Shown here: positions 10,155-48,280 of the stretch, piece after piece
How the letters are laid out: every line of letters begins with the position of its first letter
Numbering within the stretch: position 1 is the stretch's first letter
Position numbers and translations under genes: made by a program
Source: Candidatus Dojkabacteria bacterium
GTDB taxonomy: Bacteria; Patescibacteriota; Dojkabacteria; B142; OLB20
DNA: 64,000 nucleotides
NCBI GenBank assembly: GCA_030583785.1
Contig: CP129475.1
Coordinates: 415,559-479,558, forward strand
Direction of reading: 5' to 3'
The notes under the pieces: model-generated
Databases searched by the model: none
Told to the model about the DNA's origin: nothing
What the model saw: only the letters and a program-made list of their open reading frames with translations

Positions 10155-12551
10155 TTACTTGATGATAGGTGCTGAACCTTCAACTTGTTCCATTCCTGAT
10201 AAAGGTATAGTCACATAGAAGGTTGATCCTTTCCCTACTTCAGATTCAAACCAGATCTTTCCATTAAACTTGTCCACCATAGACTTAACAATATAAAGCC
10301 CCAAGCCAGAACCGCTAACATCTAGCTGTTTAATATTATCGGCTCGGAACATTTTTTCAAATACTCTATCTTGTTGATCTTTAGGTATACCGTAGCCTGT
10401 GTCGGAAATTTTGATTAGAATTTCTTCTTTAGAGTCATCGGAGCTTTGTTTAAGAATATCGAAACTAACAGTACCTCCGTTTGGCGTGTATTTTAATGCA
10501 TTAGAAAGTAAATTAGACATTATCATTCTCAGGAGTTTTTCATCTGCTCTAATAGTTTGAATCTGATCGCTAAAATTATTATTAAGAATTATATTCTTCT
10601 CTTGAACTAGGTAATTAAATTCTTTAATTATATTTTCGGCAAGTTTAGATATATTAATCTCTGTTGGCGTAATAGGAAGTGTTCCAAGCTCGATCCTTGA
10701 AACATCTAATAAGGAATTAATCAAATCTAACATTCTTTCTGTTGCTTGCTTAATCTCAGTTATGTATTCCTTATCAGAACCACTGTATTTTGAATCGAAA
10801 TCCTGCATTAGCATTTCGATATACCAACTGATTGTGGTAATTGGAGTTCTAAGCTGATGAGATACCATAGATACGAACTCGCTTTTTGCTAAATCAATTT
10901 GTTTTGATTGTGTGATATCTCTCATAATCTCTACAGCTCCAATAATCTTGTTTTGAAAAACTACCATTGAGACTGTTGAGGCTATTGGAATTCTAACCCC
11001 ATTGCTACTTAGTAGATAATATTCTCCCGTTTTGTTTGTTTGCAAAGCGACAGCTTCTTCTATCGGAGTTTTTGCAAGCTTGAGAATATTTCCCTTTGCA
11101 TCTTTTCCTAAAATATTCATCACTTTGCTTACTGGTCTTCCGATAGCCTTGCTTGGATCTACACCAAGCATAGCGATTGCGGCTGGATTAGCCATTATTA
11201 GATTACCTTGCCTGTCTACTGCTAAGATACCTTCTCCAATTGAACCAAGGAAGGCCTCTGTTCTTGCTTTTTCTTCTTCTGAAACCTTTCTTGCTAATTC
11301 TACATCTTCCATAACATTCATAATCGCCATTTTTATTTCAGATAATCTGGCATTACTCTCCTCTAATTTGGACACCTTATTAGTAAGTTTCGCAGTAGCA
11401 GATTGAACGCGCATCTCGAGGTTTTGATTCATTTCCTGAAGATCTTTTGCCATCGCATTGACGGATTTTGCAAGTAAGCCGATTTCATCGTTCGAGCGCA
11501 CTTCTACTCTATTTGTTAGGTTCCCGCGAGCAATCTGAGTAACCGTTCCGGTGATTGACTCTATAGGTTTAACTATTGTTCGAGTTAATAGACTGACTAC
11601 AAGAAAGACAACTAGGAATAAGACTAAGTTTGACAGTATCAACTGATCTCTTAGTCTGTATACACCGCTAAGAATGACTTCTTCAGGTATCTCTTTAATA
11701 ACTAGCCAATAGTCTGAATCTAGGCTTGGAAAGACTACTCTCTCGAAGCTATACAGACTAGCATCAAGAATAAATGTATCTCTAATATTGTTTTGTAAGG
11801 AATAAAGTTTGTCATCTAAAATGTTATAGATGTTTTCTCCTACCTTAAAGCTGTCAACTCTATAAATCTGTGAATTTGTGGCTAGTATAGTTCCGGAATC
11901 AGAAACAATGTATTCTGCGAATCTATTATTACTGCTTGTTTCATTTATAAAGGGTGTTAGGTTTATATCTACAAGAAAGACAATATAAGCCGTTGTATTC
12001 CCGGATAGGGCTATTGGTCTTATAAAGTAGACTTCAGTAATTAGTTCATTATTGTATTGATAAGTGAAATAATCGCTAATCGTTTGCCCCTCTTCTAGAT
12101 CTGAAAGTACAAGAAACGGATCAGCATGCTTGATTAAATCATAAACATCCTCAATAGATTGTTCGTTTTGCAGAAACGAAGGATTCTTGAAATCGTATAA
12201 CGGATTTCCCTGTGAGTCTAAAAGAAATATCCTGCTGAGGTAATTCTTATACTGGATAAAAGTATTGAAATCATTATCGATAACTTCTTGAGGCATATTA
12301 TCCAAACTACCTAGAGTGGTTGTATGCTTAACGATGTGAGTAGCAAGCATTCCAACCTCTTTTTCTATCTGTTGAAGGGCAGTTGTTATTGCTCTTGCTC
12401 GAACTGCTGTTGTGCTGACACTCTCGTTAATACTCTGATCTAAAGCAAGACTTGTCTGGTTTTGTATACTAAAATATGCCAACACAGACATACCTAAACC
12501 TAGGGTTAGTGAAAGAATCAGTGTTACTTTTGTAGATAGTTTAATTTTCAT
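10155..12551 (-). CDS. Sensor histidine kinase (periplasmic sensor domain, HAMP, PAS, HisKA, HATPase_c)
   Basis: Two TM helices flank a ~280-aa extracytoplasmic domain. A HAMP-like region and coiled coil precede a PAS (GEGILAVDRQGNLIMANPAA), an H-box SHQLRTPITTISWYIEML, and N/G boxes (LLSNALKYTPNGG ... DTGYGIP ... GSGLGLYIVKSMV). Confidence 0.85.
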   Translation of the reverse strand: MKIKLSTKVTLILSLTLGLGMSVLAYFSIQNQTSLALDQSINESVSTTAVRARAITTALQQIEKEVGMLATHIVKHTTTLGSLDNMPQEVIDNDFNTFIQYKNYLSRIFLLDSQGNPLYDFKNPSFLQNEQSIEDVYDLIKHADPFLVLSDLEEGQTISDYFTYQYNNELITEVYFIRPIALSGNTTAYIVFLVDINLTPFINETSSNNRFAEYIVSDSGTILATNSQIYRVDSFKVGENIYNILDDKLYSLQNNIRDTFILDASLYSFERVVFPSLDSDYWLVIKEIPEEVILSGVYRLRDQLILSNLVLFLVVFLVVSLLTRTIVKPIESITGTVTQIARGNLTNRVEVRSNDEIGLLAKSVNAMAKDLQEMNQNLEMRVQSATAKLTNKVSKLEESNARLSEIKMAIMNVMEDVELARKVSEEEKARTEAFLGSIGEGILAVDRQGNLIMANPAAIAMLGVDPSKAIGRPVSKVMNILGKDAKGNILKLAKTPIEEAVALQTNKTGEYYLLSSNGVRIPIASTVSMVVFQNKIIGAVEIMRDITQSKQIDLAKSEFVSMVSHQLRTPITTISWYIEMLMQDFDSKYSGSDKEYITEIKQATERMLDLINSLLDVSRIELGTLPITPTEINISKLAENIIKEFNYLVQEKNIILNNNFSDQIQTIRADEKLLRMIMSNLLSNALKYTPNGGTVSFDILKQSSDDSKEEILIKISDTGYGIPKDQQDRVFEKMFRADNIKQLDVSGSGLGLYIVKSMVDKFNGKIWFESEVGKGSTFYVTIPLSGMEQVEGSAPIIK

Positions 12552-14070
12552 CCTGATACCTTGCCAGTTGTTGTTTAAGTTCTTTCATACGAATCTCTCT
12601 ACCGACCATAAGTCTGTTCACTTTTTCTAGTTCTGCGTTTCTCTTCTCTAGTTTTTCTTCACTTTCGTTTCTTTCGATGGCAAACATAATATTTTGTCCA
12701 ACAATGCGCATTATGTTAGTCATGTCTTCTAGCCATCTTCTGGTTTTTGTTAGTTGCGTCATACCAATAAAACCCTTAACAATATTTTTTGTAATAAACG
12801 GAACTACAAGCATTGATTTAATGCCTAGGTTTAGGAATTCATCTCTCTCAAGAACTGCATCCTGTGGTAATTCATTAATATTTTCAAATTTAAAAACCTT
12901 GCCAGAAAGCAAAGTTCTATGCATATTTCGAAGAGTCGTTATAGGAACCCAAACTCTATACTTATCAGGGATTTTCTTCTCTTGAGCAATGGCCCAGTCG
13001 TAACCTATGCTCATCTGACTTTGATCATCTGAATAAAAAAAGATGTAGAGCCTATCTACTCCAATAAATTTCCCGATTCTCTCCATGATATTAACTATAC
13101 GGATTTGAAACTCATCTTTTGGAATATAAATTAGGCTCGAACTAATATCACTGATTAACATTTGTAATGAACTTCTAACCTTTAGCTCTTGCTGGCTTTG
13201 ATAAACATATGTTGTATCTATACCAAAGTGAAAGACAGTTTTCTTGCTTCCAGTCTCTGTTATAACTGTTCTTCTCCAAGATATTTGCCTAATATTTGAG
13301 GGGGAGATTGCAATAATATCGCTCTTCTGGCTTAAGACCGATTTACTATCGCTTAAAAGCTTCTCATACTCACTTGCGTAATATTCTCTTTGATCGACAG
13401 GTGCGATAACATCAAGCCAATCGTTACCGAAAAGCTTTTTGCCATTTGCAAGTATCTTGTCTGCCATCGGATTAGAATAGATTATCTTGTAAGCACTATC
13501 CGTGACCAAGACCAAAGCATCTGAACTTTCGAGATAAATTCTAGATTTGTCCTTCTCAACCGACAACTGTTCTCTGACTTGTTGCTCTTGGGTAATATCC
13601 TTAACATAACTTATTATCGCCTGCACGCTTCCGTTATAATCGAAGAGAACCGAATCAAATATGACTGTTCTGATACTACCATCTGCATGATTAATATTTG
13701 TGCGCAAACTGATTGGCTTTTTATTGCGTAGAATTGCAGCAATTGAACCTAATACTTCTCTTAATGAATCTGGCGGGAAAAGCTTCAACATAGGGATCCT
13801 TTTACCTATCAAATCGTTCGGCGTATAACCTCCGACAGAAGCAAGAGCTTTATTTACTTGCAGAACTTTTCCGGTAGGCGAGGTAATAGCTATTCCGAAA
13901 GGGATTGAATCAAATATTGTCTGATATTTTTTTATTTCAAGCTCAAGATTGTCGTTAGAAGCGCATTCTTTTTCTAATATAGCCACTAAGGGTTTGAGCA
14001 ATTCTTGTTTATTGCTATCAATTTCTCCATAAGCCTGAAGAAGAATTTGTTGGACCTTATTTTCTGACAT
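12541..14070 (-). CDS. Cytoplasmic PAS-PAS-GAF signalling protein without recognisable output domain; overlaps start of downstream histidine kinase by 11 bp
   Basis: Two PAS-like segments (FDSIPFGIAITSPTGKVLQVNKA..., SDALVLVTDSAYKIIYSNP...) and a GAF-like region (RIGKFIGVDRLYIFFY...MLVVPFITKNIVKGFIGM) are followed by a C-terminal coiled coil (EEKLEKRNAELEKVNRL). Confidence 0.6.
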   Translation of the reverse strand: MSENKVQQILLQAYGEIDSNKQELLKPLVAILEKECASNDNLELEIKKYQTIFDSIPFGIAITSPTGKVLQVNKALASVGGYTPNDLIGKRIPMLKLFPPDSLREVLGSIAAILRNKKPISLRTNINHADGSIRTVIFDSVLFDYNGSVQAIISYVKDITQEQQVREQLSVEKDKSRIYLESSDALVLVTDSAYKIIYSNPMADKILANGKKLFGNDWLDVIAPVDQREYYASEYEKLLSDSKSVLSQKSDIIAISPSNIRQISWRRTVITETGSKKTVFHFGIDTTYVYQSQQELKVRSSLQMLISDISSSLIYIPKDEFQIRIVNIMERIGKFIGVDRLYIFFYSDDQSQMSIGYDWAIAQEKKIPDKYRVWVPITTLRNMHRTLLSGKVFKFENINELPQDAVLERDEFLNLGIKSMLVVPFITKNIVKGFIGMTQLTKTRRWLEDMTNIMRIVGQNIMFAIERNESEEKLEKRNAELEKVNRLMVGREIRMKELKQQLARYQDEN

Positions 14071-14094: not shown

Positions 14095-15258
14095 CTAAAA
14101 TTCAGCTACCTCTTCCCAACTCTTAATGATGATCTCAGGATTTATCTGAACGGTTTTAATCTTAATTCTTCGAACGGCTTCTCCTACAGTTGAGGTCACT
14201 CTAATTTCTTTGTTTGGCTGAGTATTTAATTGACATTGCGTGTATAACAAACTAATTTCTGCAGGTGTTAGCACTCTATCCCAAATATCTAGATTATCGA
14301 TTAGGCCACTCCATGGTTCTGCACCAAGAACATCTTTTGCTCCTCTACCAACTAGTAAAGTCGATGCCCCTGCGATTACACCAGGCACTCGTGGCCCCAA
14401 AAAAGTTGTACCAACAAGGTTACCATTTACAAAAAGCTGAATATCGTCTCCGTTCTCCCAGGTAAGAACCAAATGTTGCCAATCCGTTGTAGTGATATTC
14501 GAAGTAGTTTCCATTTGTTGAACAATATTGCTCACACCATTAAAAATGGTTACTCCAGCCTTAATTACCTCTGTACCCCCCCCATAAAGACCGCCAGCAT
14601 CGTAACGCATACCAAACACATCATCGTCACCGTTAGGTGGAAATGTTATTAAGAAACCTCTGTCTGTGTTAATCGTATCTGACTTTATCCAGGTTGAGAT
14701 AGAAAATGCAGTCATGCCATTAATATAATCTTCTCCGTCTGCATCTTCTAGGAAATCGTTTATTCCATCGAAACTTGCTGCAGAGTCGCACTGACCAATT
14801 ACATCTGCAGTTGGACAAGCACTCCCTGAACACTCGAAGTGTCTGTTATTACCAGAACTATCTAAAAAGGTAGTTGAAGCAGGGGGATCATCAAACTTGA
14901 GAGAAAGAACATTCCCTCCTCCATTATCTCCAACCTCTTCTGGGATATCAGTTATTACATATTCGCAGGTTCCGTCTGCAAGAGATGAGTTTGTTGTTCC
15001 GGTAATTGATGGATCGTTTCTAATAGCATCAAGTGCTCGGTTGGCACAGGCATCGTGAATAGCTCTTGCTGATGTGCTTTCAACTACTAGATCCGTGGTA
15101 TTTACACTCGATGTACCCAACAGGATAATGCTCACAAGAAGGGTTCCCGCAACAATGCTAATCAGAATCACTGTAACTAGTGCGATGTATCCATTTTTTT
15201 TATCTGACATTGATGCTTGCGTAATAAGTTTGAGTATAGTCATTCTCTGATCTGCCAT
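14095..15258 (-). CDS. Type IV pilin-like (minor pilin/pseudopilin) protein fused to a LamG / concanavalin A-like lectin domain; probable start at MSDKKNG (about 15210)
   Basis: A short basic leader MSDKKNG is followed by a hydrophobic helix YIALVTVILISIVAGTLLVSIILL (pilin-like, no Glu5). A LamG-like domain includes FDGINDFLE...DWQHLVLTWENGDDIQLFVNGNLVG. Confidence 0.55.
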   Translation of the reverse strand: MADQRMTILKLITQASMSDKKNGYIALVTVILISIVAGTLLVSIILLGTSSVNTTDLVVESTSARAIHDACANRALDAIRNDPSITGTTNSSLADGTCEYVITDIPEEVGDNGGGNVLSLKFDDPPASTTFLDSSGNNRHFECSGSACPTADVIGQCDSAASFDGINDFLEDADGEDYINGMTAFSISTWIKSDTINTDRGFLITFPPNGDDDVFGMRYDAGGLYGGGTEVIKAGVTIFNGVSNIVQQMETTSNITTTDWQHLVLTWENGDDIQLFVNGNLVGTTFLGPRVPGVIAGASTLLVGRGAKDVLGAEPWSGLIDNLDIWDRVLTPAEISLLYTQCQLNTQPNKEIRVTSTVGEAVRRIKIKTVQINPEIIIKSWEEVAEF

Positions 15259-15709
15259 CTGGATTTACATAGCTAAGAGTTAGGGCCACCCTAACTACAC
15301 CTTTGGTTCCCGGTCTTGATAAGTTAGTTACAAGAAAATTATCAACCGATACTCTGTTCGAGCTTAAATTAACGGGAGGAAAGAATTTCTCTGTCATGCT
15401 AAGTGTGTTTCCACTCAAGGCAATTGTAGTTGGATCAACTGCGGCTGTTACCATATCGAGTTGAATCTGGTTACTACTAAGTCCTGCAGAAGGTAATATG
15501 ATTGCTTCTGAATCACGAACCGATTGAGATATCAACTGTAGTATCTGCATAGCTTGCTGATCGACTTCTGCAACTGTGGCTGCCCGTGCTCTGGCAAATA
15601 TTATCTGCGTAAAGACAAGAGTTATTATAGTCAACACAACAGCGGCTATCGCTGTGTAAAGTAGCACTTCAATTAATGTAAAAGCTTGTTTGTGCTTGTT
15701 ATGATCCAT
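15200..15709 (-). CDS. Type IV pilin-like protein (prepilin-type N-terminal methylation domain)
   Basis: The leader MDHNKHKQA is followed by FTLIEVLLYTAIAAVVLTIITLV, the class III signal/pilin N-terminus with Glu at +5. It has a small 169-aa body. Confidence 0.75.
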   Translation of the reverse strand: MDHNKHKQAFTLIEVLLYTAIAAVVLTIITLVFTQIIFARARAATVAEVDQQAMQILQLISQSVRDSEAIILPSAGLSSNQIQLDMVTAAVDPTTIALSGNTLSMTEKFFPPVNLSSNRVSVDNFLVTNLSRPGTKGVVRVALTLSYVNPDGRSENDYTQTYYASINVR

Positions 15710-17235
15710 TAATTTGGTTGTAGTATATAAAACTCGTTACTATTATCCTGATTTGTCAAAAATATTCTATCAATAGATGGCTGATAAAAAATTCCTGTAG
15801 CATTACCAGGCAAGTTCAAATCTCCCACGAAAACAGGTGAAGCTGGAGTTGTGTAATCTAAAACCAGAAACTCTTGGGCTGCGGACTGATTAGCAACAAA
15901 AAGTCGATTAAATAATGGGTCATAAGCTAGGTCGTTCACCTGGCCACCCGTGCTATAGGTACTCTGGACCACAAGAGATGTTGGTGTAGAGGCACTAACT
16001 GCAACTAGGGTGCCATCAGCTCTGCCAACAAACATTTGTGAACCATCCATAAGAATAGTTCGAGCAATACTCCTTCCAGCAAGATTCAATGAACCGGCTG
16101 CAGAAATTGAACCCGGATTAGTTATATCTAAAATCTGAATCTCTGCAGAACCGCTGTTTGTTGCCAAGTATGCGTAGTTTCCGTAAATTGCAATATCGTA
16201 AACTGTGTTTGGAATATTAAAGCTACCTAATAAAACCGGTGAAGCCGGGGTGGCAATGTTGTAAATGTAAAATTCTGGCTGTCCACCGCTGACTCTACCA
16301 GCATAGAGCCTTGTACCATCAACTCTAACAGCATAAATGTTTTGATTTGTAGCTAAATCGATATTACTTGAATTCGTTGGCGCATTTGGATTTGTAACAT
16401 TAAAAACACGAATCTCTGCATTATTTGCAGACGAAGCTAAATAAAGATAATTTGCTCCACTGTCAGCCAACATGAATCCATTACTGGCAGGAGATGTAGT
16501 TCCGAGAGGAGCAGGTGATGCCGGATTTGAAATATCAAATATTCTGAGTACAGATGCTAGCTGCAATACATAAGCAAAATTACCATTAACAACAACATCG
16601 ATAGCATCATTATTTCCTGCAAAGTTAACCGAAGTAGTTACTGCTGGATTAGCCCAACTAGCGGTTGGTGTTGGTGATGGTGTTGGCGTCGGTGAATCTG
16701 TTGGTAACGGAGTTGCTGATGGTGTTGCTGTTGGTGTCGGTGTCGGTGTATTTGTTGGTGTTGGGGTTGGAGTTGGTGTAGGTGTCGGTGTTGCCAGTCT
16801 GCCCCAATCGCTGATTTCCGTTGATATTGTTACAGATCTGTTTATACCCGTTGGTTCTTGGCTCCAGTTGACAACTGCTGTAACCTGCTTTCGATAAGCG
16901 TCAATCGAGCTTACGGTTATGCTTCTGCTATATTCCCCTACTGTATCGGAAGAACCACTTAGAGCCCAAACACCTCCGGAAATTGTGATACCATGAACCC
17001 CGTCAGGTAGGTTTGAAAAGTCTTCTTCGGCAATATTTCTTGCAGCCTCTATGGCTTCGTCGGCTAAGAATGAGGCTCTGGCAGCATTGCCCGAAGCATA
17101 TATTGATTCTTGAGAGAAAGAAAGTAAGGCAACAACAGAGAATATTAATAACCCTAGCAATGCTAAAGCCAAAAGAACCTCTACAAGAATTGCTGCCTTG
17201 AATTGTCTCTTTTCTTTTCTCATTTTAATAATCAA
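15709..17235 (-). CDS. Large pilin-like protein: prepilin-type N-terminus + Thr-Pro-rich linker + LVIVD-repeat beta-propeller
   Basis: The N-terminus reads KRQFKAA/ILVEVLLALALLGLLIF. The TPTPTPTPTPTPTNTPTPTPTATPSATPLPTDSPTPTPSPTPT linker is encoded by GGTGTT-type hexamer repeats at about 16655..16795. At least 5 repeats follow of the pattern hydrophobic-x-I/V-F/L-D/N-I/V-T/S-N-P-x-x-P (LRIFDISNPASPAPLG, IRVFNVTNPNAPTNSS, FYIYNIATPASPVLLG, IQILDITNPGSISAAG, LVLDYTTPASPVFVG), which is the LVIVD repeat. Confidence 0.65.
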   Translation of the reverse strand: MIIKMRKEKRQFKAAILVEVLLALALLGLLIFSVVALLSFSQESIYASGNAARASFLADEAIEAARNIAEEDFSNLPDGVHGITISGGVWALSGSSDTVGEYSRSITVSSIDAYRKQVTAVVNWSQEPTGINRSVTISTEISDWGRLATPTPTPTPTPTPTNTPTPTPTATPSATPLPTDSPTPTPSPTPTASWANPAVTTSVNFAGNNDAIDVVVNGNFAYVLQLASVLRIFDISNPASPAPLGTTSPASNGFMLADSGANYLYLASSANNAEIRVFNVTNPNAPTNSSNIDLATNQNIYAVRVDGTRLYAGRVSGGQPEFYIYNIATPASPVLLGSFNIPNTVYDIAIYGNYAYLATNSGSAEIQILDITNPGSISAAGSLNLAGRSIARTILMDGSQMFVGRADGTLVAVSASTPTSLVVQSTYSTGGQVNDLAYDPLFNRLFVANQSAAQEFLVLDYTTPASPVFVGDLNLPGNATGIFYQPSIDRIFLTNQDNSNEFYILQPN

Positions 17236-17659
17236 TTACTCCTCTATTATTTATACTTATTACCCATTGCTCGGACTCTGGATTTGTTATTGTTATTGAT
17301 CCAGTATTTGATGTATTGCCTATTACGGGATTAAAAATTACTTCGCTTAATCCGGTGAATGCAAGCTCGTTAGAAACAGTTGTAATCTCATCAAAGTCAG
17401 GATTTCTGGTTAAGTAAGTTTGACCTCGAAAAACCGTAATCGAACCGTTCTGGAAATATACCCCCCAATATGAATCGTTTTCGCCTGTTTGAGATAAAAC
17501 CTGGGCCCTTCTTAACGATTGTACAGAAGCCTGTACCGCAACATCTAAATCATTTGATCCTACAATCCGACCTAGAAATGGTGCCGATACTGCAAATATT
17601 AGAGAAAACAGCGAAATCGCCAGTAGAACCTCGATTAATGTAAATGCTTTGATCCTCAT
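17225..17659 (-). CDS. Type IV pilin-like protein (prepilin-type N-terminus)
   Basis: MRIKA/FTLIEVLLAISLFSLIFAVSAP is a canonical FTLIE pilin N-terminus with Ala at -1. The protein is 144 aa. Confidence 0.75.
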   Translation of the reverse strand: MRIKAFTLIEVLLAISLFSLIFAVSAPFLGRIVGSNDLDVAVQASVQSLRRAQVLSQTGENDSYWGVYFQNGSITVFRGQTYLTRNPDFDEITTVSNELAFTGLSEVIFNPVIGNTSNTGSITITNPESEQWVISINNRGVIDY

Positions 17660-17663
17660 AATC

Positions 17664-19058
17664 CTAACTACCAGAATTATCTTCTATATAAATTTCTTCT
17701 ACCCAGCCTCTAGGTTTACCGCTAGTATTAACGATTAAATACCAACCATTACTTTTTCCTTCATATAACAAGGTTCTTTCTTCACTAATTGTCTCTATAA
17801 CATTACCGTCTGGTTGATTGTATAACTCTATTGTTCGGAACTCGTCCTTAATGGTTATCTGTCTGAAGATCTGCATAGTAGGAACCGGTGTAGCTGTAGA
17901 TGTATTAGTTGCACTGGTATATCTGGCCTGACCTACGCCACCCACCAGATTATAAACAGGAAGGATCACAGATAATGCAACAAAAACGACTCCTAGCCAA
18001 ACAGCTATCAACATTACTGGCTCAAGTAGAACAGAAAGATTTTTACTTGATGTATCAATTCTGTCTTCAAATCTTTCTCCGATTTGTTCAAGAGAATGAA
18101 CAAAATTTCCTGACCTTTCTGCAGCAATTAAAATCTGCTGTACCGGCAGAGGGATTATTTTTCCGATACCCGAGTAGCTTTTAAAAGTATCCGCAAAGGA
18201 ATAGCCATCTTCTATTCTCATGGCCAGATGTAAGTAGAAATTTCGGTAATGATAGAAATCAGATGACTTTACGAGCGAATTGACGGCATCTAAGATAGGA
18301 AGACCTGCTTTAAGCAATGTTCCTAGTAGAAAACCCATTCTGGCAACTTCGATATTGGTAACAATTATTCTCAGTGGTTTTATAGCGAAAATCATTTTTT
18401 GACCAATATGTTTTGATTTTTCGCGCACAAACAAGAATCTGTAAAGAAGGATCACAAAAACAAAAATTAGAGGGACAACAATTATTCCGTATTGAGACAA
18501 GAAGTCACCTAACCCAATAAGGAGCGAGGTTATAACTGGCATCTCGATATTTAATGCTGAATATACTGCTGAAAGTCTTGGGATAACAAAAATAAATATT
18601 CCCAAACCTAAGACTAGAGATAATCCGAGTATAATCGCAGGATAAAGCATTGCCGAAAGAAGTTTTGAACGAAACATTCTATTCTTTTTGATCTGTTCAA
18701 CAACCAAAGCAAGGTTCTCTGGTAACTGTCCGGATTCTTCACCAATTCTGACGAAAGTTACCAAATAACTTTGTACAACTTTATTTCTATCCAGTGATCT
18801 CCAGAGGGGATAGCCGCTGTCGATATCATCGATTACGCTATCAATTATTTCTAAGACCTGCGGTGTCCTGGTATCGAATCGGACTGCATGCAGTGAAGAT
18901 ACAATATCTAACCCTGAATCAACTAGCAAAGCTAGATTTTCGATAAAATCTTCAAGCTCGCGAGATATTCCACCCAATGGAGATGTAAGAGCAAGAAGTA
19001 TCTTCTTATAGAAGGGCTTCTTCTTTTTTTTTGAGAATTCTGTGCTTGACCTTATCAT
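17664..19058 (-). CDS. pilC: Type IV pilus assembly platform protein PilC/GspF family (two T2SSF domains) with extra C-terminal SH3b-like extension
   Basis: It is polytopic with duplicated T2SSF-like halves (LSAMLYPAIILGLSLVLGLGIFIFVIPRL... and ...GNFVHSLEQIGERFEDRI...LLEPVMLIAVWLGVVFVALSVILPVY). About 90 extra residues follow, ending NGWYLIVNTSGKPRGWVEEIYIED. Confidence 0.8.
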   Translation of the reverse strand: MIRSSTEFSKKKKKPFYKKILLALTSPLGGISRELEDFIENLALLVDSGLDIVSSLHAVRFDTRTPQVLEIIDSVIDDIDSGYPLWRSLDRNKVVQSYLVTFVRIGEESGQLPENLALVVEQIKKNRMFRSKLLSAMLYPAIILGLSLVLGLGIFIFVIPRLSAVYSALNIEMPVITSLLIGLGDFLSQYGIIVVPLIFVFVILLYRFLFVREKSKHIGQKMIFAIKPLRIIVTNIEVARMGFLLGTLLKAGLPILDAVNSLVKSSDFYHYRNFYLHLAMRIEDGYSFADTFKSYSGIGKIIPLPVQQILIAAERSGNFVHSLEQIGERFEDRIDTSSKNLSVLLEPVMLIAVWLGVVFVALSVILPVYNLVGGVGQARYTSATNTSTATPVPTMQIFRQITIKDEFRTIELYNQPDGNVIETISEERTLLYEGKSNGWYLIVNTSGKPRGWVEEIYIEDNSGS

Positions 19059-19066
19059 CAGTTTTG

Positions 19067-20746
19067 TTATTTAGTTTTTGATTTAGTTTGCTTCGCTTCA
19101 GTAATCACTGGGGGAGCTACCCTAAGCACCTCTTCGATTGTTGTAATACCCTGTTTAACTTTAACGATTCCATCTTCAAACATAGAATGTGCTCCCTGCT
19201 CTACTGCTAATCTCCAGATATCTGCTGTTGAGGGATCTGCAAGAATAAGGTCTTTCATTTCTCGAGTCATGTTTATGAACTCGAAAATTGCTGATCTGCC
19301 AATATATCCAGAGTTATGACAAGCTGCACAACCTTTTGCCTCATATAGGCTTACTTCATTTTCAGAGAAAACGCCTTTTATTGCCGGAAATTCTTTTTCG
19401 AGGTCTGCCCTTTTAACATTTTTACTTATTCTGCAAGTTTGGCAAATCTTGCGAACAAGTCTTTGAGCAACGATCAGTTCAAGAGTCGAGGCAAGCAAGA
19501 AAGACTCTACTCCCATATCTCTAAGTCTAGGGATTGCAGTGGCAGCATCATTTGCATGAAAAGTAGACAAAAGTAAATGTCCTGTTAATGCAGCATTAAC
19601 TGCAATCTCGGCAGTTTCTTCGTCACGGATTTCTCCGACAAGAATGACATCTGGATCTTGCCTTACAATAGATCGCAACCCTTTAGCAAATGTTAGATTG
19701 GTCTGGGTGTTAACCTGAATATGGTTTACGCCCTTAATCTTATATTCAACCGGATCTTCAATTGTCGTAACATTTACCCCAGGATTATTTAAAATTCTTA
19801 GTACTGAGTAAAGAGTTGAGGTTTTTCCGGAACCGGTCGGACCGGTGACCAAAATCATTCCGAAAGGCCTTTTGGAGGCTGCTATTAAAAGATCTTGATC
19901 ATTTACAGAAAGACCAATTTCTGAAAGAGAAAATCTTTTTACATACTCGGATAAGATTCTGATTGTAATTTTTTCACCATCAAGTGTTGGAATTACTGAC
20001 ACACGCATATCAACAGCCTTGTCACCTTTTCGGATTCGCATTGAACCGTCTTGTGCTGAGGCATGCTCATCGATGCGCATATGTGCATTAACTTTGATCA
20101 GGTTTAAAATGTTTTCATAATATTTCTTTTCGATTCTGGCAGCTTCTTGAAGAACTCCATCAATTCTAATTCTGATGATAACTTCTGTCTCTTGAGGTTC
20201 AAAGTGGATATCTGACGCTCTATCAACTATTGCATCGTCAATAATTTCCACTACGACATCGGGTGCAATACGATCGGATTGTTCGATAATCTTTTTAAAC
20301 CTTGTTTCAAGAGGTTCACGATAATGGACAAGTAAGCTATCAATGTCTTCTGGAAGTGCGTACGCCAGCTTAACATTTCTTGCCTTGTAGACCTGCTTTA
20401 ATAAAGAAACAATCTCTGCATTAGTAGGATCGTCTGTGGCAACTACAACTTCTGATTTATTGTCGACATATTGAACTACTCTGTACTTTTTACCGATTTC
20501 TTTTGGTATAGAAAGGACTTCTTGCCTGGAAGGAATATTCGTATTCAAGTCAGCATAATTAATCCCTAGACTTTCTGCAACTGCTTGACCGATTAAATCT
20601 TTTGTAACTATTCCCTGGGAAAGTAAATACTCAAGAAGATCTCCTTTAGTTTTTGCAACAACCTTTTCGGCAGATACTAATTCTTCTTCTGAGATGTAAC
20701 TGCCTTTTAGCAGTATTTGACGGATTGCTTTATTGTCGAGTTTCAT
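19067..20746 (-). CDS. pilB: Type IV pilus assembly ATPase PilB / GspE family
   Basis: It has an N-terminal T2SSE_N domain and Walker A GPTGSGKTSTLYSVL. Asp box, His box and a tetracysteine-like CQTC...CAAC are present. Confidence 0.9.
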   Translation of the reverse strand: MKLDNKAIRQILLKGSYISEEELVSAEKVVAKTKGDLLEYLLSQGIVTKDLIGQAVAESLGINYADLNTNIPSRQEVLSIPKEIGKKYRVVQYVDNKSEVVVATDDPTNAEIVSLLKQVYKARNVKLAYALPEDIDSLLVHYREPLETRFKKIIEQSDRIAPDVVVEIIDDAIVDRASDIHFEPQETEVIIRIRIDGVLQEAARIEKKYYENILNLIKVNAHMRIDEHASAQDGSMRIRKGDKAVDMRVSVIPTLDGEKITIRILSEYVKRFSLSEIGLSVNDQDLLIAASKRPFGMILVTGPTGSGKTSTLYSVLRILNNPGVNVTTIEDPVEYKIKGVNHIQVNTQTNLTFAKGLRSIVRQDPDVILVGEIRDEETAEIAVNAALTGHLLLSTFHANDAATAIPRLRDMGVESFLLASTLELIVAQRLVRKICQTCRISKNVKRADLEKEFPAIKGVFSENEVSLYEAKGCAACHNSGYIGRSAIFEFINMTREMKDLILADPSTADIWRLAVEQGAHSMFEDGIVKVKQGITTIEEVLRVAPPVITEAKQTKSKTK

Positions 20747-21143
20747 GGGGCAGATATTGATTAATTTGTTGAATTATCGCCGAGAGCGGCGTATTTGATT
20801 TGACATAGTATCCAACTGCCCCTTTGGATTTTGCTTTATCAATATCCTCTTGTTGACTTAAATTTGAACTGACTATGATGGGGGGCAAATTTGGCTTTCC
20901 CTTTATTGCGTCAAGGAAGCCAAAACCATCAAGATTAGGCATAATTAAATCAAGAAGAATAAGATCAAATTTATTTTTTTCGAGTTCACTGATTGCCTGC
21001 ATTCCGTCAGCTGCAACAGTAGCTTCGTAGCCACTACTAGTAAGCTTTAATTGCAAAGCTTTAGCTATCGGTCTTTCGTCTTCTACAATAAGTATTTTGA
21101 GTGCCACTTTTTTATTACCCTTTGATAGGTTAATAATAAACAA
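20730..21143 (-). CDS. Stand-alone response regulator receiver (CheY/PilH-like)
   Basis: ILIVEDERPIAKAL...FDLILLDLIMPNLDGFGFLDAIK...PPIIVSSNLSQQED...K carries the conserved Asp pocket and phospho-acceptor Asp. It has no output domain and overlaps the pilB start by 17 bp. Confidence 0.85.
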   Translation of the reverse strand: MFIINLSKGNKKVALKILIVEDERPIAKALQLKLTSSGYEATVAADGMQAISELEKNKFDLILLDLIMPNLDGFGFLDAIKGKPNLPPIIVSSNLSQQEDIDKAKSKGAVGYYVKSNTPLSAIIQQINQYLPHETRQ

Positions 21144-31558: not shown

Positions 31559-32059
31559 TTAAAAAAGATCGTCTTCTTCGTCGTCATTTGTAGTTACTTT
31601 TTCTTCGTTACTCTTGACTGAAGTATTATCGTTTGTTGTTTGATCGTCCGCAATAACAATATCTTCTTCTGCTGAGTCGCCCTCTGATCTTGCTGCATCA
31701 ATACCTATTCCTTTTTTTCCTTTGTCATCAAGAAGCTTCATATCATTAACCTTGATCTCTGTTTTGTATCTTCTGCCTCCAGTGCTGTCTTCCCATGTTC
31801 GAGTTCTAAGTTCTCCTTCTATCCAGACCAACATTCCAGTTGATAATATTTGTGCGCAAATCTCGGCAAGTTTATTCCATGCTACAACATTATGAAATTC
31901 TGTTCTTTCCTGTAGATTACCGTTACTGTCTTTCCATGAGTCGTTTGTTGCTACACCGAAAGTGCAAACTGTTGCATTATTTGAAGTACTTCTAAGTACT
32001 GGGTTTCTAGTAAGATTACCAATCAATAGAACTTTGTTTAGTGATCGTGAGGTTGCCAT
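31559..32059 (-). CDS. ssb: Single-stranded DNA-binding protein
   Basis: An OB-fold (NKVLLIGNLTRNPVLRST...TEFHNVVAWNKLAEIC...GMLVWIEGELRTRTWED) is followed by a disordered acidic tail ending EEDDLF (the SSB C-terminal tip). Confidence 0.85.
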   Translation of the reverse strand: MATSRSLNKVLLIGNLTRNPVLRSTSNNATVCTFGVATNDSWKDSNGNLQERTEFHNVVAWNKLAEICAQILSTGMLVWIEGELRTRTWEDSTGGRRYKTEIKVNDMKLLDDKGKKGIGIDAARSEGDSAEEDIVIADDQTTNDNTSVKSNEEKVTTNDDEEDDLF

Positions 32060-34055: not shown

Positions 34056-37000
34056 CTAATTTATTATGAAGTAGTTAAATATTGTATCAGTATCAATTGA
34101 GTTTTCGATTTCTATCGTAAACCCGACACCTGGTTTAATATTTACAACCCTATATTGGACAAATTGGTTTGCAGTAAGTTGAACAATTGAATCTGAATTT
34201 ACCTGAATGTTGTTAACCTCTACTCTAACAGACCCGGCTGAAATAACTGCCTTACCGGCAGCCTGATTCTGCCCTGTTCCAAGAGATAGTTTTCTTTCTA
34301 TCAATAAGCTGTTTGTAACAGCTTCGTTAGCGTAAAAGACTCCTAGAACATCAAGATCACCTTCTACGACTAGAGCACCTTTTACTACTAACTGATCAAT
34401 CGAGATTGCTAATGAAGTACTACCAGGATTATCGATAATCTCAAATAGATTATCTCCATTTGCTAAGGTAAATGATTCGATTTGCAGAGCAGAGATTCCG
34501 TTGTTTCTTTCTCCAAAGACTTCACTGCCAACATATATTGGAGACACATAGGCATTGATTCTTCCAATTTCTGGTAGAACTGTTGCTTCTTCTTGAATCA
34601 TCTCTGCCAGAATTCTTGCTTTCTCATCCTCAATATTAAGTTCCTTGTAGAGTTCATTATTAACTAGATTTAACAAAGTCTGTGCGTCCTCGTTACTAAG
34701 CCCCTGTCTGATTAACTCATCAATATAATCATAAGCTTCTATTTTGTAATTAACTATGTTTTCACGAACCAGCTCGGAATCTCCAGCAGTGAAGAATGTC
34801 GAGTCAAAATCCTCGAGCGCTCTACCAACAACCATGCCAGGTTTTGTTGCTCTCATTACATATCCAGGAATGGATGCTGGAGCAAGGAAATCACCTCGTT
34901 TTATCGGACCGTTTTCTTCCGAGATATATACTATGCTTGATCCTCTCATTAATGTTGGGACAGATGCAGTCGACCCATTAACTAGCTTATCGATGTTCAC
35001 CTTTGGAGAAACTGAAGCAACACCAGCTATTAGATTTGAATTCAAGTTGTTAGACTTAGATACCTCAAGAGGATTATCTGTGTAAGAAACAACTTGACCC
35101 GGCAAGACTAGCTCTTCTTCTTTGGCGAAGAACATTTCGTTAGTCGATTCAACAGAGATTGTGTTGTTGATCACAATTGGGTCAATTGGTTTGATTATTG
35201 GCGCTTCTGATTGATCTGGAGCTTCAATCTCGGGGTCGAAAGCTAAACTAGAACTGTCTTCACCCATTACGAACTCTGGAATTCCATCTCCGTCTGCATC
35301 GAATTCGAACTTGCCTGTTTCAGGATTAAATCTAATAACACCATATCCGTTGCTACCAATTGCTATAGAATTTTCATCTGATGGGTCGAACCAAGTATTA
35401 TTGATCATCACTAGAATGCTTATCTTGCCCGATTCTTTTGTCCAAGCTTCCAGAGCTGTTCCGATAATCATACCTCTGCTTGTTGCTTTCTGTCCTCTAC
35501 CTGCATTCGATGATACCGAGATAGGATCACCGATAGAAATATCCTGCGATTCTGTAGATATTTTGACGGGGACTCTTCCTGCCAAGGCAAGCGGTTTGAA
35601 GTAAGCCAAATCTAGTTTATTATCTGGTGTAGATGGGTTTAGTACCAACCCTGGATTTGTTGAAATAATTCCCAATACATTATTCCGTGAAGAAGTTGTT
35701 GCTTTTTCAACAAGAAATCTATTGTACAGATTCTCGTCTTCGTGTTGCTTGTTTGATACGCTGACGATATCGCCTGCACTTATTGATGTATCATCGGTTT
35801 TGACATATTCTGCAATGTCCGGAGTACCCGAACCGTTAGTCATATCAACCCATTCATAGTTGTTCGAAGAATTCTGTCTGCACAAGTAGATTGAACCATT
35901 CTCCCCAGAGTCCCGATTATAGATAGTAGTGCCAACGGTTGAAGAATCGCATGTAGGAGCATTACCTGTCGCTACATTAGCATATACTATTCCAGCAGAT
36001 GTTCCTGAGATGACTATATTTCCACTCACAGTGATTGAATCACTTAGTTGAAACTCACTGTCAGTGCCGTTCCACTTCAATGTTTCTGTATTTGTTCCCC
36101 CGAAGTTGATTGTGATATCACCTGAAGCAGTTGTATCTTGATCTGTCTGGAGATAAAGGTCACCATCTGTGAAGATTCCTCCTTCAACCCCTAAAAGGCC
36201 TGCCACAAACATATCATCTCCAGATAACGAGAAACTACCGTGAGCAATGGTTGATGTTGCACTTGTTGAAGCACCAACGATTAAATCGCCTCCCACATAA
36301 ACACGGTCTCCAACTTCAAGGTCATCTGTGACTCGCATATCACCTGCAGATGGAGTACTTACATAGCTAAATGCAGCATCTGCACCAATTATTATTGCTT
36401 CTGTATTTGAGAAATATCCGTTTGTTCCATTGGTCCATAGTGCGCCTGCCAGGAGATCAATATTTGATGATCCATTATAGAAATAGAGGTTCGTTCCGTT
36501 CCACCATAGATCTCCATTAACAGGTGCAGATGGATTCACACCAGATGAAGATGATAGATTAATCTGAGCACTTGCTGTTGTTGCTGCTTTGATATCTAAC
36601 CAAGCATCTGGATTCTGTACACCAATTCCGACCCTATCTGTCCCACCAGATGCATTGATCAGATACGAATCGGTATCGCCCTCAATTATAAAATCTACAG
36701 CAGCACCATTTTGGTTAAATACAAAGTTTGCATCATTGAGTTCAAGAGTATCTGCGTTCGTATATTCGAGTCTTCCAGTGTTGCCATTTGCAGAATAGAA
36801 ATCGATTTTTCCATTTGATCCTGAACCGACACCAACTCTCACCAGATTATTGTTTACATCAACACTAAAGGCAGCAGTAAGTCCAGTACCGCCAATTGCA
36901 AAGTTATCTGTGGTACTAGTTAGATATGTAACCGTACCTGCATCAGTCAAGAGTGGATTGAATCCGCAGTTGGGTTGACTTGCATTACAAACCAATTTAT

Positions 37001-47668: not shown

Positions 47669-48280
47669 TTAATACTCACTTCTTCCCAGAAGCGCTTTAT
47701 CAAGTGTTGAGAAATCAGCGTATTCAAGATCAGCTCCACTCGGAAGCCCTCTTGCAAGCCTGGAAATTTTAATATTAGACATATGCGAATACTCTTTCTT
47801 TAGGTACATACCCGTTGCCTCACCTTCGAGATTTGGATTTGTGGCGATAATCAGTTCAATTTCTTCGGTATGTGTTTTTAGTCTTTTAGTAAGGAGGTCT
47901 ATTGACAGTTGATCTGGTCCAATACCTTGAACCGGTGATATTGATCCACCTAAAACATGATATGTTCCATCGTAAGTGCCAATATTTTCGAAAGCAAAAA
48001 GATCGAGAATGTCTTCAACCACCAGTATTGTAGATTTATCTCTTTTCTCATCGGAACAAATTGAGCAGGTAGTATTATCTGAAGACATTATGTTTCTACA
48101 TACTCCACAAAAGGCAATATCTTTGGTTAATGCGTTTATTGCCTCTGCGAATGAGGAGATATGCTCTCTCGGACTATGCACTAGATGGAATACAAGTCTG
48201 TAAGCTGTCTTAGGACCAATCCCCGGCAAAGACGAGAAATAATCTGCTAGCCTCTCTATCGATCTAGGGAGCGATTTCAT
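47669..48280 (-). CDS. recR: Recombination protein RecR
   Basis: It has helix-hairpin-helix LPGIGPKTAYRL, Cys4 zinc finger CGVCRNI...CSICSD, and Toprim domain. Confidence 0.9.
   Translation of the reverse strand: MKSLPRSIERLADYFSSLPGIGPKTAYRLVFHLVHSPREHISSFAEAINALTKDIAFCGVCRNIMSSDNTTCSICSDEKRDKSTILVVEDILDLFAFENIGTYDGTYHVLGGSISPVQGIGPDQLSIDLLTKRLKTHTEEIELIIATNPNLEGEATGMYLKKEYSHMSNIKISRLARGLPSGADLEYADFSTLDKALLGRSEY

What the first reader, a model, noticed from the sequence alone, without database searches (positions are those of the whole stretch)
15709..17235. Pilin-like N-terminus fused through a hypervariable Thr-Pro linker to an LVIVD-repeat beta-propeller: candidate pilus tip adhesin
The 508-aa protein starts with a prepilin-type helix, has a ~45-residue (TP)n linker, and then at least five LVIVD-type repeats (hydrophobic-x-[IV]-[FL]-[DN]-[IV]-[TS]-N-P-..-P). 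The linker is encoded by near-perfect GGTGTT/GGTGTC hexamer repeats at about 16655..16795, making it prone to length variation. A beta-propeller presented on a pilin stalk would be an adhesin, relevant to host attachment in episymbiotic lineages.
Basis: partly seen in the sequence, partly recalled or inferred. Interest (0 to 1): 0.6.

Follow-up and report, generated by a model that had tools for sequence, protein, structure and literature searches.

The report
Minor pilin carrying a beta-propeller head
This gene in a candidate-phyla-radiation bacterium encodes a small type IV pilus subunit joined by a flexible Thr/Pro tether to a seven-bladed LVIVD beta-propeller, most likely a pilus-tip adhesin; the design is real, but it is already catalogued and has an experimental precedent in a related lineage.

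Summary
Window 15709..17223 (- strand; 504 aa from the ATG, 508 from an upstream TTG) encodes three parts: a pilin module, a 47-residue Thr/Pro linker and a seven-bladed LVIVD beta-propeller. The pilin module is modelled with pLDDT 94.7, the linker with pLDDT <50. The propeller scores 53 bits on Pfam PF08309 (cutoff 20.2), forms 28 strands, and has WD40-like Foldseek matches.

The gene is second of four minor-pilin genes after PilB and PilC. Its N-domain family weakly but consistently matches ComGE, XpsI/GspI and PilV. A tip-located modular minor pilin acting as an adhesin is therefore the best reading.

Two details are wrong or need qualifying:
- The linker DNA is not near-perfect. TRF gives 67% matches and the longest perfect hexamer tract is 17 nt. 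Two independent SRA assemblies are 100% identical, so no slipped-strand variation was seen. Linker length differs only between species (7, 29, 47, 69 aa).
- The signal is atypical (KA|AILVE, Ala at -1 and +1, no PF07963 hit). Orthologues have the canonical KG|FSLVE.

Novelty is low. Pilin plus LVIVD architectures (30 proteins) are listed in Raynaud et al. 2021. In Saccharibacteria, a propeller-bearing minor pilin (PilX2) is needed for efficient host binding.

The parts
15709..17223 (-). Whole gene, stop included. It gives 504 aa from ATG 17223; the ORF listing extends it to TTG 17235 (508 aa). It is a modular minor pilin. The ATG lies 1 nt after the stop of the upstream pilin gene, and the stop overlaps the ATG of the downstream pilin gene by 1 nt (TAATG).
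   Evidence: (gene callers use the ATG)
17194..17223 (-). Leader peptide MRKEKRQFKA (10 aa, basic). It is aligned with the leaders of the orthologues, which end in KG. The predicted cleavage site is KA|AILVE, with Ala at -1 and +1, which is non-canonical.
   Evidence: PF07963 not matched by the target
17023..17193 (-). Alpha-1 helix of the pilin module (aa 11-67), with Glu at +5 (E15 in 504-aa numbering). Its first half is hydrophobic.
   Evidence: AF2 helix 4-67, pLDDT 94.7; E15 invariant in the family
16798..17022 (-). [quoted passage not shown] Conserved residues are G75, G78, W86, D93, R100 and W120.
   Evidence: family members match ComGE 34/40, XpsI 31/40, PilV 28/40, GspI 13/40
16657..16797 (-). 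Thr/Pro-rich linker (47 aa, LATPTPTPTPTPTPTNTPTPTPTATPSATPLPTDSPTPTPSPTPTAS). It is encoded by an imperfect ACN-CCN hexamer array.
   Evidence: AF2 pLDDT <50 for residues 143-177; orthologue linkers 7/29/69 aa
15712..16656 (-). Seven-bladed LVIVD beta-propeller (aa 190-504). Blade motifs: LRIFDISNP 16522-16548, IRVFNVTNP 16387-16413, FYIYNIATP 16246-16272, IQILDITNP 16114-16140, LVAVSASTP 15982-16008, FLVLDYTTP 15844-15870, and a terminal FYILQPN.
17225..17659 (-). Upstream minor pilin (144 aa, RIKA|FTLIE). It sits at the H position and has weak GspH / ComGD matches.
15200..15709 (-). Downstream minor pilin (169 aa, HKQA|FTLIE). It sits at the J position; the class is assigned by gene order only.
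14095..15258 (-). Fourth minor pilin (387 aa). Its N-terminus G|YIALVTV lacks Glu5, as in GspK, PilX and ComGG, and it carries a C-terminal LamG_3 lectin-type domain. It is a second modular pilin.
   Evidence: (PF13385, 78.9 bits)
17664..19058 (-). PilC/GspF platform protein (T2SSF, two domains).
19067..20746 (-). PilB/GspE assembly ATPase (T2SSE 400 bits, plus MshEN).

Best explanation
The gene encodes a modular core minor pilin of a type IV pilus in a Dojkabacteria/WS6-like CPR bacterium. Its N-terminal 142 residues form a pilin module of the GspI / PilV / ComGE class. A 47-residue Thr/Pro tether is grafted onto this module, followed by a seven-bladed LVIVD beta-propeller.

Proposed mechanism:
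1. The alpha-1 helix anchors the protein in the membrane.
2. The leader is removed by the prepilin peptidase.
3. The protein assembles with the three neighbouring minor pilins (H, J and K positions) into the priming complex on PilC.
4. PilB-driven polymerisation of the major pilin, which is encoded outside this window, pushes this complex outwards so that it caps the filament.
5. The extended linker lets the propeller reach past the other tip subunits. There it binds a ligand on a host cell or substrate, alongside the LamG lectin module of the K-position pilin.

Shown here: the domain architecture, the fold predictions, the operon position and the conservation of both. Inferred: processing, tip location and adhesion.
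For: Architecture and fold
- Pfam LVIVD 53 bits against a cutoff of 20.2.
- The AF2 full-length model has pLDDT 87.8, with a pilin lollipop, a disordered linker and 28 strands.
- Foldseek matches to 7-bladed propellers have target-normalised TM-scores of 0.74-0.81.
- The N-domain model has pLDDT 94.7.

Operon position
- Operon order is receiver, PilB, PilC, pilin, target, pilin, LamG pilin without Glu5, with start/stop overlaps.
- The same order and position recur in WS6 OLB20, a JGI contig, a Gracilibacteria-labelled MAG and two further metagenomic loci. In three of these, PF07963-positive or canonical G|FTLxE pilin genes (candidate major pilins) lie in the same cluster, and one of these three also has PilM.

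Minor-pilin class
- Of 40 N-domain family members, 34 match ComGE, 31 XpsI, 28 PilV and 13 GspI. H, J and K models are rare.

Family breadth
- At least 32 of the 150 best propeller hits carry the homologous pilin N-domain.

Hints at ligand binding
- The WS6 OLB20 orthologue adds a C-terminal CBM2 carbohydrate-binding module.
- Against OLB20 the target is the fastest-diverging structural protein of the pilus operon: 37% identity versus PilB 79, PilC 60, K pilin 57, H pilin 49 and J pilin 45. The divergence is concentrated in the propeller (31%) rather than the pilin module (53%).

Literature
- Modular pilins are proposed to be tip-exposed adhesins, and PilB of S. sanguinis is shown to be one (PMC8179133).
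- The propeller-bearing minor pilin PilX2 of Saccharibacteria TM7x is required for efficient host binding (PMC11623550).
Against: - No binding, localisation or processing data exist for this protein or for any LVIVD pilin.
- The cleavage site is atypical (Ala at -1 and +1) and PF07963 does not match. Processing could therefore be inefficient.
- No prepilin peptidase, major pilin, PilM/N/O or PilT gene lies in the 64-kb window.
- The class I assignment rests on sub-threshold HMM scores (26 bits against a cutoff of 49). The only structural hint is a non-significant Foldseek match to EpsI (E 0.21).
- The propeller has no recognisable ligand-binding signature. LVIVD repeats are of unknown function.
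Confidence: 0.65

Rival explanations
1. The protein is an unprocessed, membrane-anchored surface protein. The degenerate class III signal would act only as an uncleaved N-terminal transmembrane anchor. The propeller would then be displayed on the cell envelope at the end of the Thr/Pro stalk and would not be incorporated into a pilus.
For: - The protein has Ala at -1 and Ala at +1. The family has Gly at -1 in 96 of 99 cases and never Ala at +1.
- PF07963 fails on the target but hits 36 of 40 relatives.
Against: - Glu5, the leader length and the whole pilin module are conserved.
- The two neighbouring pilins of the same operon also have Ala at -1, as do some pilins in the related loci L003, L004 and L006. 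The lineage's peptidase therefore probably accepts Ala.
- The gene keeps its minor-pilin slot and its translational coupling.
Confidence: 0.12
2. The propeller is a DNA receptor at the tip of a competence-type pilus. The filament would serve DNA uptake, and the propeller would capture DNA in the way the E. coli propeller YncE is reported to bind DNA (from my own knowledge, not checked here).
For: - The gene order ATPase, platform, then four minor pilins resembles comGA-GG, and the best N-domain model is ComGE.
- The propeller has a weak sequence match to chains deposited as 'YncE family protein' (E 1.4e-4).
- CPR pili have been linked to DNA uptake (PMC6744442). DprA, RecR and SSB genes lie in the window.
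Against: - ComGE scores are below the cutoff, and PilV and GspI models match similarly.
- The YncE match covers only about 110 residues of generic propeller sequence.
- The companion LamG module and the CBM2 module of the orthologue point to glycan ligands rather than DNA.
Confidence: 0.08
3. The propeller is an enzyme displayed on the pilus or pseudopilus. It would be catalytic (for example a hydrolase acting on host envelope or on polysaccharide), not an adhesin.
For: - The top Foldseek hit is the propeller phosphotriesterase 5HRM (E 7e-12).
- The orthologue P0002 carries CBM2, a module typical of glycoside hydrolases, and NCBI names it 'Endoglucanase D precursor'.
- Modular pilins with peptidase modules exist (PMC8179133).
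Against: - Identity to 5HRM is 11%, and the match is one of more than 1000 generic propeller matches.
- No catalytic family was matched by Pfam or NCBIfam.
- The endoglucanase name derives from the CBM2 module alone.
Confidence: 0.07
4. The linker is a contingency locus. The Thr/Pro-coding hexamer array would change length at high frequency by slipped-strand mispairing and so tune how far the propeller projects.
For: TRF detects a period-6 array of 21.7 copies. Linker length differs between orthologues: 7, 29, 47 and 69 aa.
Against: - The array has only 67% matches. The longest perfect tract is 17 nt (fewer than 3 units) and synonymous codons are mixed.
- Two independent assemblies are identical.
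- No closer variants were found in JGI metagenomes.
Confidence: 0.05

Closest known systems
Modular type IV pilins with LVIVD repeats (IPR012902 + IPR013211 architectures in Dataset S1 of Raynaud et al. 2021, PNAS, PMC8179133)
   Same: The domain combination is the same: a prepilin-type N-terminus followed by LVIVD repeats. The dataset lists 30 such proteins (8+8+7+4+1+1+1), including a Candidatus Falkowbacteria protein that the text describes as 860 residues with 12 copies. IPR013211 is the LVIVD repeat entry (PMC10210494).
   Different: That survey only lists the architecture and calls the motif 'of unknown function'. The present protein would not have been picked up by IPR012902, because PF07963, the Pfam model of the same motif, misses its Ala-Ala site. 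This work adds the I-class assignment, the operon position, the 7-blade model and the Thr/Pro tether.
PilX2 of Nanosynbacter lyticus TM7x (Saccharibacteria), PMC11623550
   Same: [quoted passage not shown] Its deletion roughly halves host binding, from 10.6% to 4.6% of host cells. TM7x also has a jelly-roll-bearing minor pilin (PilX1), which parallels the LamG pilin encoded here.
   Different: The PilX2 propeller is of the RCC1 type, and no RCC1 match was found here. PilX2 is reported to lack a PilD-type signal, and its authors gave it the 'X' name. The present protein belongs to the PilV/GspI/ComGE class, has Glu5, and joins the propeller through a long Thr/Pro linker.
PilB and PilC modular minor pilins of Streptococcus sanguinis (PMC8179133, PMC9934059)
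   Same: A small pilin module carries a grafted binding module: vWA in PilB and a concanavalin-A-like lectin in PilC. PilB has been shown experimentally to be an adhesin. The neighbour at 14095-15258 has the same pilin plus lectin-superfamily design as PilC.
   Different: The grafted module and the linker type differ (a short loop there). S. sanguinis is a Firmicute with a different set of pilins.
PilY1 / PilC tip adhesins of Pseudomonas and Neisseria (IPR008707 / PF05567)
   Same: A beta-propeller is presented at the type IV pilus tip together with the core minor pilins.
   Different: PilY1 is not a pilin; it docks onto the minor-pilin complex. Here the propeller is covalently fused to a minor pilin. 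No match to the PilY1 propeller family appeared at E<=1, and PilY1 is not among the top 50 Foldseek hits.
GspI / EpsI, PilV and ComGE core minor (pseudo)pilins
   Same: The gene is second in an H-I-J-K-like series. It has a small pilin fold with Glu5. Its N-domain family gives weak HMM matches to these three models rather than to H, J or K models.
   Different: The N-domain family's matches are weak and the target's own score is below the curated cutoff (ComGE 26 bits against 49). No significant structural match was found (EpsI E 0.21). Classical members are about 120-190 aa with no extra module.

Membership tests
Type IV pilin (class III signal peptide, PF07963 / IPR012902) | Short basic leader ending in Gly at -1 | tested here: not met
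   The leader MRKEKRQFKA ends in Ala. Orthologues have KG. In the family the -1 residue is Gly 96 times and Ala 3 times. The two neighbouring pilins also have Ala at -1.
Type IV pilin (class III signal peptide, PF07963 / IPR012902) | Glu at +5, followed by about 20 hydrophobic residues that form alpha-1N | tested here: met
   The sequence reads A|AILVEVLLALALLGLLIF. E15 is invariant in alignments A2 and A4. AF2 models the helix to residue 67.
Type IV pilin (class III signal peptide, PF07963 / IPR012902) | Match to the N_methyl HMM above threshold | tested here: not met
   The target has no PF07963 hit. 36 of 40 homologues match at E<=0.01.
Type IV pilin (class III signal peptide, PF07963 / IPR012902) | Lollipop fold: a long N-terminal helix packed on an antiparallel beta-sheet | tested here: met
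   The AF2 N-domain model has pLDDT 94.7, with helix 4-67 and six strands between 75 and 138.
Type IV pilin (class III signal peptide, PF07963 / IPR012902) | Encoded with the assembly ATPase and platform protein | tested here: met
   PilB (T2SSE, 400 bits) and PilC (T2SSF, 142 bits) lie immediately upstream. The arrangement is conserved in five other loci.
Type IV pilin (class III signal peptide, PF07963 / IPR012902) | Cleavage and N-methylation by a prepilin peptidase, and incorporation into filaments | not testable with these tools
   This needs biochemistry. No peptidase gene lies in the window.
I-class core minor pilin (GspI / PilV / ComGE) | HMM match above the curated cutoff | tested here: inconclusive
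   The target scores 26 bits on ComGE against a cutoff of 49. Family members match ComGE 34/40, XpsI 31/40, PilV 28/40 and GspI 13/40 at E<=0.01.
I-class core minor pilin (GspI / PilV / ComGE) | Second gene of an H-I-J-K minor-pilin series whose last member lacks Glu5 | tested here: met
   The order is 144-aa pilin (weak GspH/ComGD matches), target, 169-aa pilin, 387-aa pilin without Glu5.
I-class core minor pilin (GspI / PilV / ComGE) | Structural similarity to solved GspI or PilV | tested here: inconclusive
LVIVD-repeat beta-propeller (PF08309 / IPR013211) | HMM match above the gathering threshold | tested here: met
   53 bits against a cutoff of 20.2, E 2.1e-14, two stretches. Six motif copies and a terminal partial copy are present.
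LVIVD-repeat beta-propeller (PF08309 / IPR013211) | Beta-propeller fold | tested here: met
   AF2 predicts 28 strands in seven groups of four, at pLDDT mostly above 90. Foldseek finds 1059 PDB matches at E<=1e-3, with target-normalised TM-scores up to 0.81 to 7-blade WD40 domains.
PilY1 / PilC tip adhesin (PF05567 / IPR008707) | C-terminal PilY1-type propeller domain | tested here: not met
   No PF05567 match at E<=1. PilY1 is not in the top 50 Foldseek hits.
RCC1-propeller minor pilin (TM7x PilX2 type) | RCC1 repeats in the propeller | tested here: not met
   No RCC1 family appears among the Pfam matches at E<=1.
Slipped-strand contingency locus | Long perfect tandem repeat tract | tested here: not met
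   TRF gives 67% matches. The longest perfect hexamer tract is 17 nt.
Slipped-strand contingency locus | Repeat-number polymorphism among closely related genomes or reads | tested here: inconclusive
   Two assemblies are identical but may be the same strain. No other close relatives were found.

The most novel reading that the evidence does not exclude
In Dojkabacteria-like CPR bacteria the pilus tip may be a two-headed adhesin built entirely from pilins. The I-position minor pilin would carry a fast-evolving LVIVD propeller on a long Thr/Pro tether. The K-position minor pilin would carry a LamG lectin. Together they would replace the non-pilin PilY1 of classical type IVa pili, and the propeller would determine host specificity. 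A corollary is that the PilV/GspI-like module serves across CPR as a general carrier for interchangeable heads (propellers, Cys-rich knots, Ig/FN3 arrays). A further corollary is that this lineage's prepilin peptidase accepts Ala at -1.
Probability: 0.35. Interest if true: 0.5.

Novelty: new member of a known kind. Interest (0 to 1): 0.3.

Why it matters
How CPR/Patescibacteria epibionts recognise and hold on to their hosts is largely unknown, and type IV pili are the leading candidates. This protein gives a concrete candidate receptor-binding module for an uncultivated Dojkabacteria-like lineage. The module is well modelled by AF2 (pLDDT mostly above 90) and is a discrete domain that could be expressed on its own.

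The work also shows that the LVIVD-pilin architecture sits at a defined position (I class) in conserved pilus operons. That turns a catalogue entry 'of unknown function' into a testable adhesin hypothesis. It does not reveal a new kind of system.

Tried and rejected
- A word-indexed homologue search with the N-domain alone returned nothing, although P0001 and P0002 clearly share the domain. A profile search later found 104 relatives.
- The full-length search was swamped by Thr/Pro low-complexity hits. Only P0001 and P0002 were orthologues.
- A sequence search of PDB with the N-domain profile matched only alpha-1 helices of unrelated pilins.
- Foldseek with the N-domain gave no significant hit.
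- A JGI metagenome scan for close relatives found none, so population-level linker variation could not be examined.
- A cluster look-up of ten family members returned no names or taxonomy.
- PilY1, RCC1 and choice-of-anchor-B membership were considered and rejected. PilY1 and RCC1 gave no hit, and TIGR04312 scored 31.6 bits against a cutoff of 100.
- The 'Endoglucanase D' name of the orthologue was rejected as an annotation carried over from its CBM2 module.
Full report
**What is there**

The ORF at 15709..17235 (- strand) is real. The ORF listing starts it at a TTG that lies inside the upstream gene. Two public assemblies call the ATG at 17223, giving 504 aa. That start gives a 10-residue leader, the same length class as in the orthologues. 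I use 504-aa numbering below.

The gene is tightly packed. Its ATG lies 1 nt after the stop of the upstream pilin gene, and its stop overlaps the ATG of the next pilin gene (TAATG).

**C-terminal domain**

- Pfam LVIVD (PF08309) scores 53 bits against a gathering cutoff of 20.2, E 2.1e-14.
- A motif scan finds six h-x-h-h-[DNS]-h-x-x-P units spaced about 44 residues apart, plus a C-terminal FYILQPN.
- AlphaFold2 on a 25-sequence alignment gives mean pLDDT 87.8. It predicts 28 beta-strands between residues 194 and 502, in seven groups of four, i.e. a seven-bladed propeller.
- Foldseek against PDB returns 1059 matches at E<=1e-3. The top 50 are all propellers. They include the 7-bladed phosphotriesterase 5HRM and many WD40 domains, with target-normalised TM-scores of 0.74-0.81.
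- An exhaustive HMMER search with the propeller alone finds 30,992 cluster representatives at E<=1e-3. It is therefore a member of a very large superfamily.

**N-terminal domain**

- The AF2 model of residues 1-142, built on a 40-sequence alignment, has pLDDT 94.7. It shows one long helix (4-67) and a six-stranded sheet, the pilin 'lollipop'.
- The sequence aligns position by position with the canonical class III signals of its orthologues: KG|FSLVEV in WS6 OLB20 and KG|FSIVEI in a JGI contig. The target itself reads KA|AILVEV.
- Glu5 is kept, but Gly(-1) and Phe(+1) are both Ala. PF07963 does not match the target, whereas it matches 36 of 40 homologues.
- Among 99 family members with a recognisable site, the -1 residue is Gly in 96 and Ala in 3. 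Ala never occurs at +1.
- The two other Glu5 pilins of this operon also have Ala at -1 (RIKA|FTLIE and HKQA|FTLIE). Some pilins in the related loci L003, L004 and L006 do too.
- I therefore infer that the lineage's peptidase tolerates Ala. This is not shown.

**Linker**

- Residues 143-189 (window 16657..16797) are LATPTPTPTPTPTPTNTPTPTPTATPSATPLPTDSPTPTPSPTPTAS. AF2 gives pLDDT <50 for residues 143-177.
- At the DNA level, TRF finds a period-6 array with only 67% matches. The longest perfect hexamer tract is 17 nt. Thr uses four different codons and Pro three. This is not a 'near-perfect' repeat.
- Two assemblies from different sequencing runs (SRR24881069 and DRR859388) are 100% identical to the window over 12.9 and 8.6 kb, linker included. 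A scan of JGI metagenomes found no other close relative.
- Between species the linker is 7 aa with no Thr/Pro (Gracilibacteria-labelled MAG), 29 aa (WS6 OLB20), 47 aa (here) and 69 aa (JGI contig).
- The linker therefore changes on evolutionary time scales and is dispensable. Nothing indicates high-frequency slippage.

**Genomic context**

On the - strand the order is:
1. receiver domain
2. PilB/GspE (T2SSE, 400 bits)
3. PilC/GspF
4. 144-aa pilin (weak GspH / ComGD matches)
5. the target
6. 169-aa pilin
7. 387-aa pilin-like protein, whose N-terminus G|YIALVTV lacks Glu5 and which carries a LamG_3 domain (78.9 bits)
8. PAS/GAF protein
9. histidine kinase

The block from DnaB to the kinase is syntenic with candidate division WS6 bacterium OLB20. 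Identities there are DnaB 82%, PilB 79%, PilC 60%, K pilin 57%, H pilin 49%, J pilin 45% and target 37%. The source organism is therefore a Dojkabacteria/WS6-like CPR bacterium.

Homologues occupy the same slot in four further loci. In three of them, PF07963-positive or canonical G|FTLxE pilin genes (candidate major pilins) lie in the same cluster, and one of these three also has PilM. The 64-kb window itself contains no major pilin, prepilin peptidase, PilM/N/O or PilT.

**Which minor pilin is it?**

- Scanning 40 members of the N-domain family against NCBIfam gives ComGE in 34, XpsI in 31, PilV in 28 and GspI in 13. H, J and K models appear in at most 4.
- These matches are weak, and the target's own score is below the curated cutoff (ComGE 26 bits against 49). 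They are nevertheless consistent with the gene's second position in an H-I-J-K-like series.
- Foldseek gave no significant PDB match for the N-domain. EpsI appeared at rank 12 with E 0.21.
- I therefore call it 'I-class' with moderate confidence.

**Family**

- A profile of the N-domain retrieves 104 proteins, mostly 140-270 aa. Those that carry a source name are from Patescibacteria (Daviesbacteria, Collierbacteria, Moraniibacteria, Magasanikbacteria) and are annotated as prepilin-type proteins or PilV.
- Many of these carry other small C-terminal modules, for example a Cys-rich module of about 60 residues.
- At least 32 of the 150 best propeller hits have the homologous pilin N-domain. Some have FN3/Ig arrays or a second propeller in between.
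- The genome-collection scan found relatives only in CPR MAGs, apart from two MAGs labelled Gammaproteobacteria.
- The PilV-like module thus behaves as a carrier for interchangeable heads, and the LVIVD propeller is a common one.

**Mechanism**

Shown here: the architecture, the folds, the operon slot and the conservation.

Inferred from established knowledge of type IV filaments (PMC8179133; PMC11623550): the four minor pilins form the priming complex that ends up at the filament tip. The Thr/Pro tether lets the propeller project beyond the other tip subunits. The propeller, together with the neighbouring LamG lectin module, binds a surface ligand.

Circumstantial support for binding:
- The OLB20 orthologue appends a CBM2 carbohydrate-binding module.
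- The target is the fastest-diverging structural protein of the pilus operon, and the divergence lies in the propeller (31% identity to OLB20) rather than the pilin module (53%).

**Comparison with what is known**

- Raynaud et al. 2021 defined modular pilins and showed that PilB of S. sanguinis is an adhesin. Their Dataset S1 lists IPR012902 + IPR013211 architectures totalling 30 proteins. The text notes a Falkowbacteria protein of 860 residues with 12 copies of this motif 'of unknown function'.
- IPR013211 is the LVIVD repeat entry (PMC10210494).
- The neighbour's architecture (pilin + PF13385) is the commonest in that dataset, with 229 proteins.
- In Saccharibacteria TM7x, the minor pilin PilX2 carries a heptabladed RCC1 propeller. 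Its deletion lowers host binding from 10.6% to 4.6%.
- The present protein is not a PilY1 or RCC1 family member. It works like them but is covalently a pilin.

**Verdict**

This is a correct and well-supported reading of the architecture. The adhesin role is plausible but untested. One claim (the hypervariable repeat) is unsupported, and one needs qualifying (the atypical signal). It is a new member of a known kind, of modest interest.

Noticed in passing
window 17225-17659, 15709-17223, 15200-15709 (- strand): All three Glu5-bearing pilins of the operon have Ala instead of the near-universal Gly at position -1 of the class III signal (RIKA|FTLIE, QFKA|AILVE, HKQA|FTLIE). Some pilins in the related loci L003, L004 and L006 do too. 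This suggests a prepilin peptidase with relaxed -1 specificity in this lineage.
   Followed up: partly
window 14095-15258 (- strand): The fourth minor pilin (387 aa, no Glu5, K position) is itself a modular pilin with a LamG_3 / concanavalin-A-like lectin domain (78.9 bits). It is 57% identical to its WS6 OLB20 counterpart. In three related loci (L004, L006, L017) the K-position gene encodes only about 135-144 aa and has no LamG domain.
   Followed up: partly
window 17664-19058 (- strand), aa ~385-464 of PilC: The PilC platform protein has a C-terminal extension after a Thr/Pro-rich stretch, with a weak SH3_3 match (E 0.016). The match is also faint in WS6 OLB20. The extension is absent from the 357-362-aa PilC proteins of L006 and L017.
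   Followed up: no
window 34056-41561 (- strand): A 2501-aa ORF has no Pfam match at E<=1e-4.
   Followed up: no
proteins P0272, P0279, P0296, P0301, P0293; P0302, P0322: The same PilV/GspI-like pilin module carries other heads in CPR proteins. One is a Cys-rich module of about 60 residues (C..YCQ...G.CR...C...E.YE.GGD..C...DTCCC.P), duplicated in P0293 with a Thr/Pro linker. Another is an unannotated C-terminal module of about 130 residues.
   Followed up: partly
window 10155-14070 and 20730-21143 (- strand); L003, L004, L006, L017: The pilus operon is bracketed by a stand-alone receiver domain upstream of PilB and by PAS/GAF and HAMP-PAS histidine kinase genes downstream. This arrangement is conserved across the related CPR loci and suggests dedicated two-component control of this pilus.
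   Followed up: no
window 15709-17223 versus L003 10001-11875: Against WS6 OLB20 the target is the most divergent structural protein of the operon (37% identity, against 45-82% for its neighbours). The OLB20 orthologue has gained a second Thr/Pro linker and a CBM2 module at its C-terminus.
   Followed up: yes
window 56648-57685, 47669-48280, 31559-32059 (- strand): DprA, RecR and SSB genes lie in the same window. They are recombination and DNA-processing genes that could bear on a DNA-uptake role for pili, but they are not linked to the operon.
   Followed up: no
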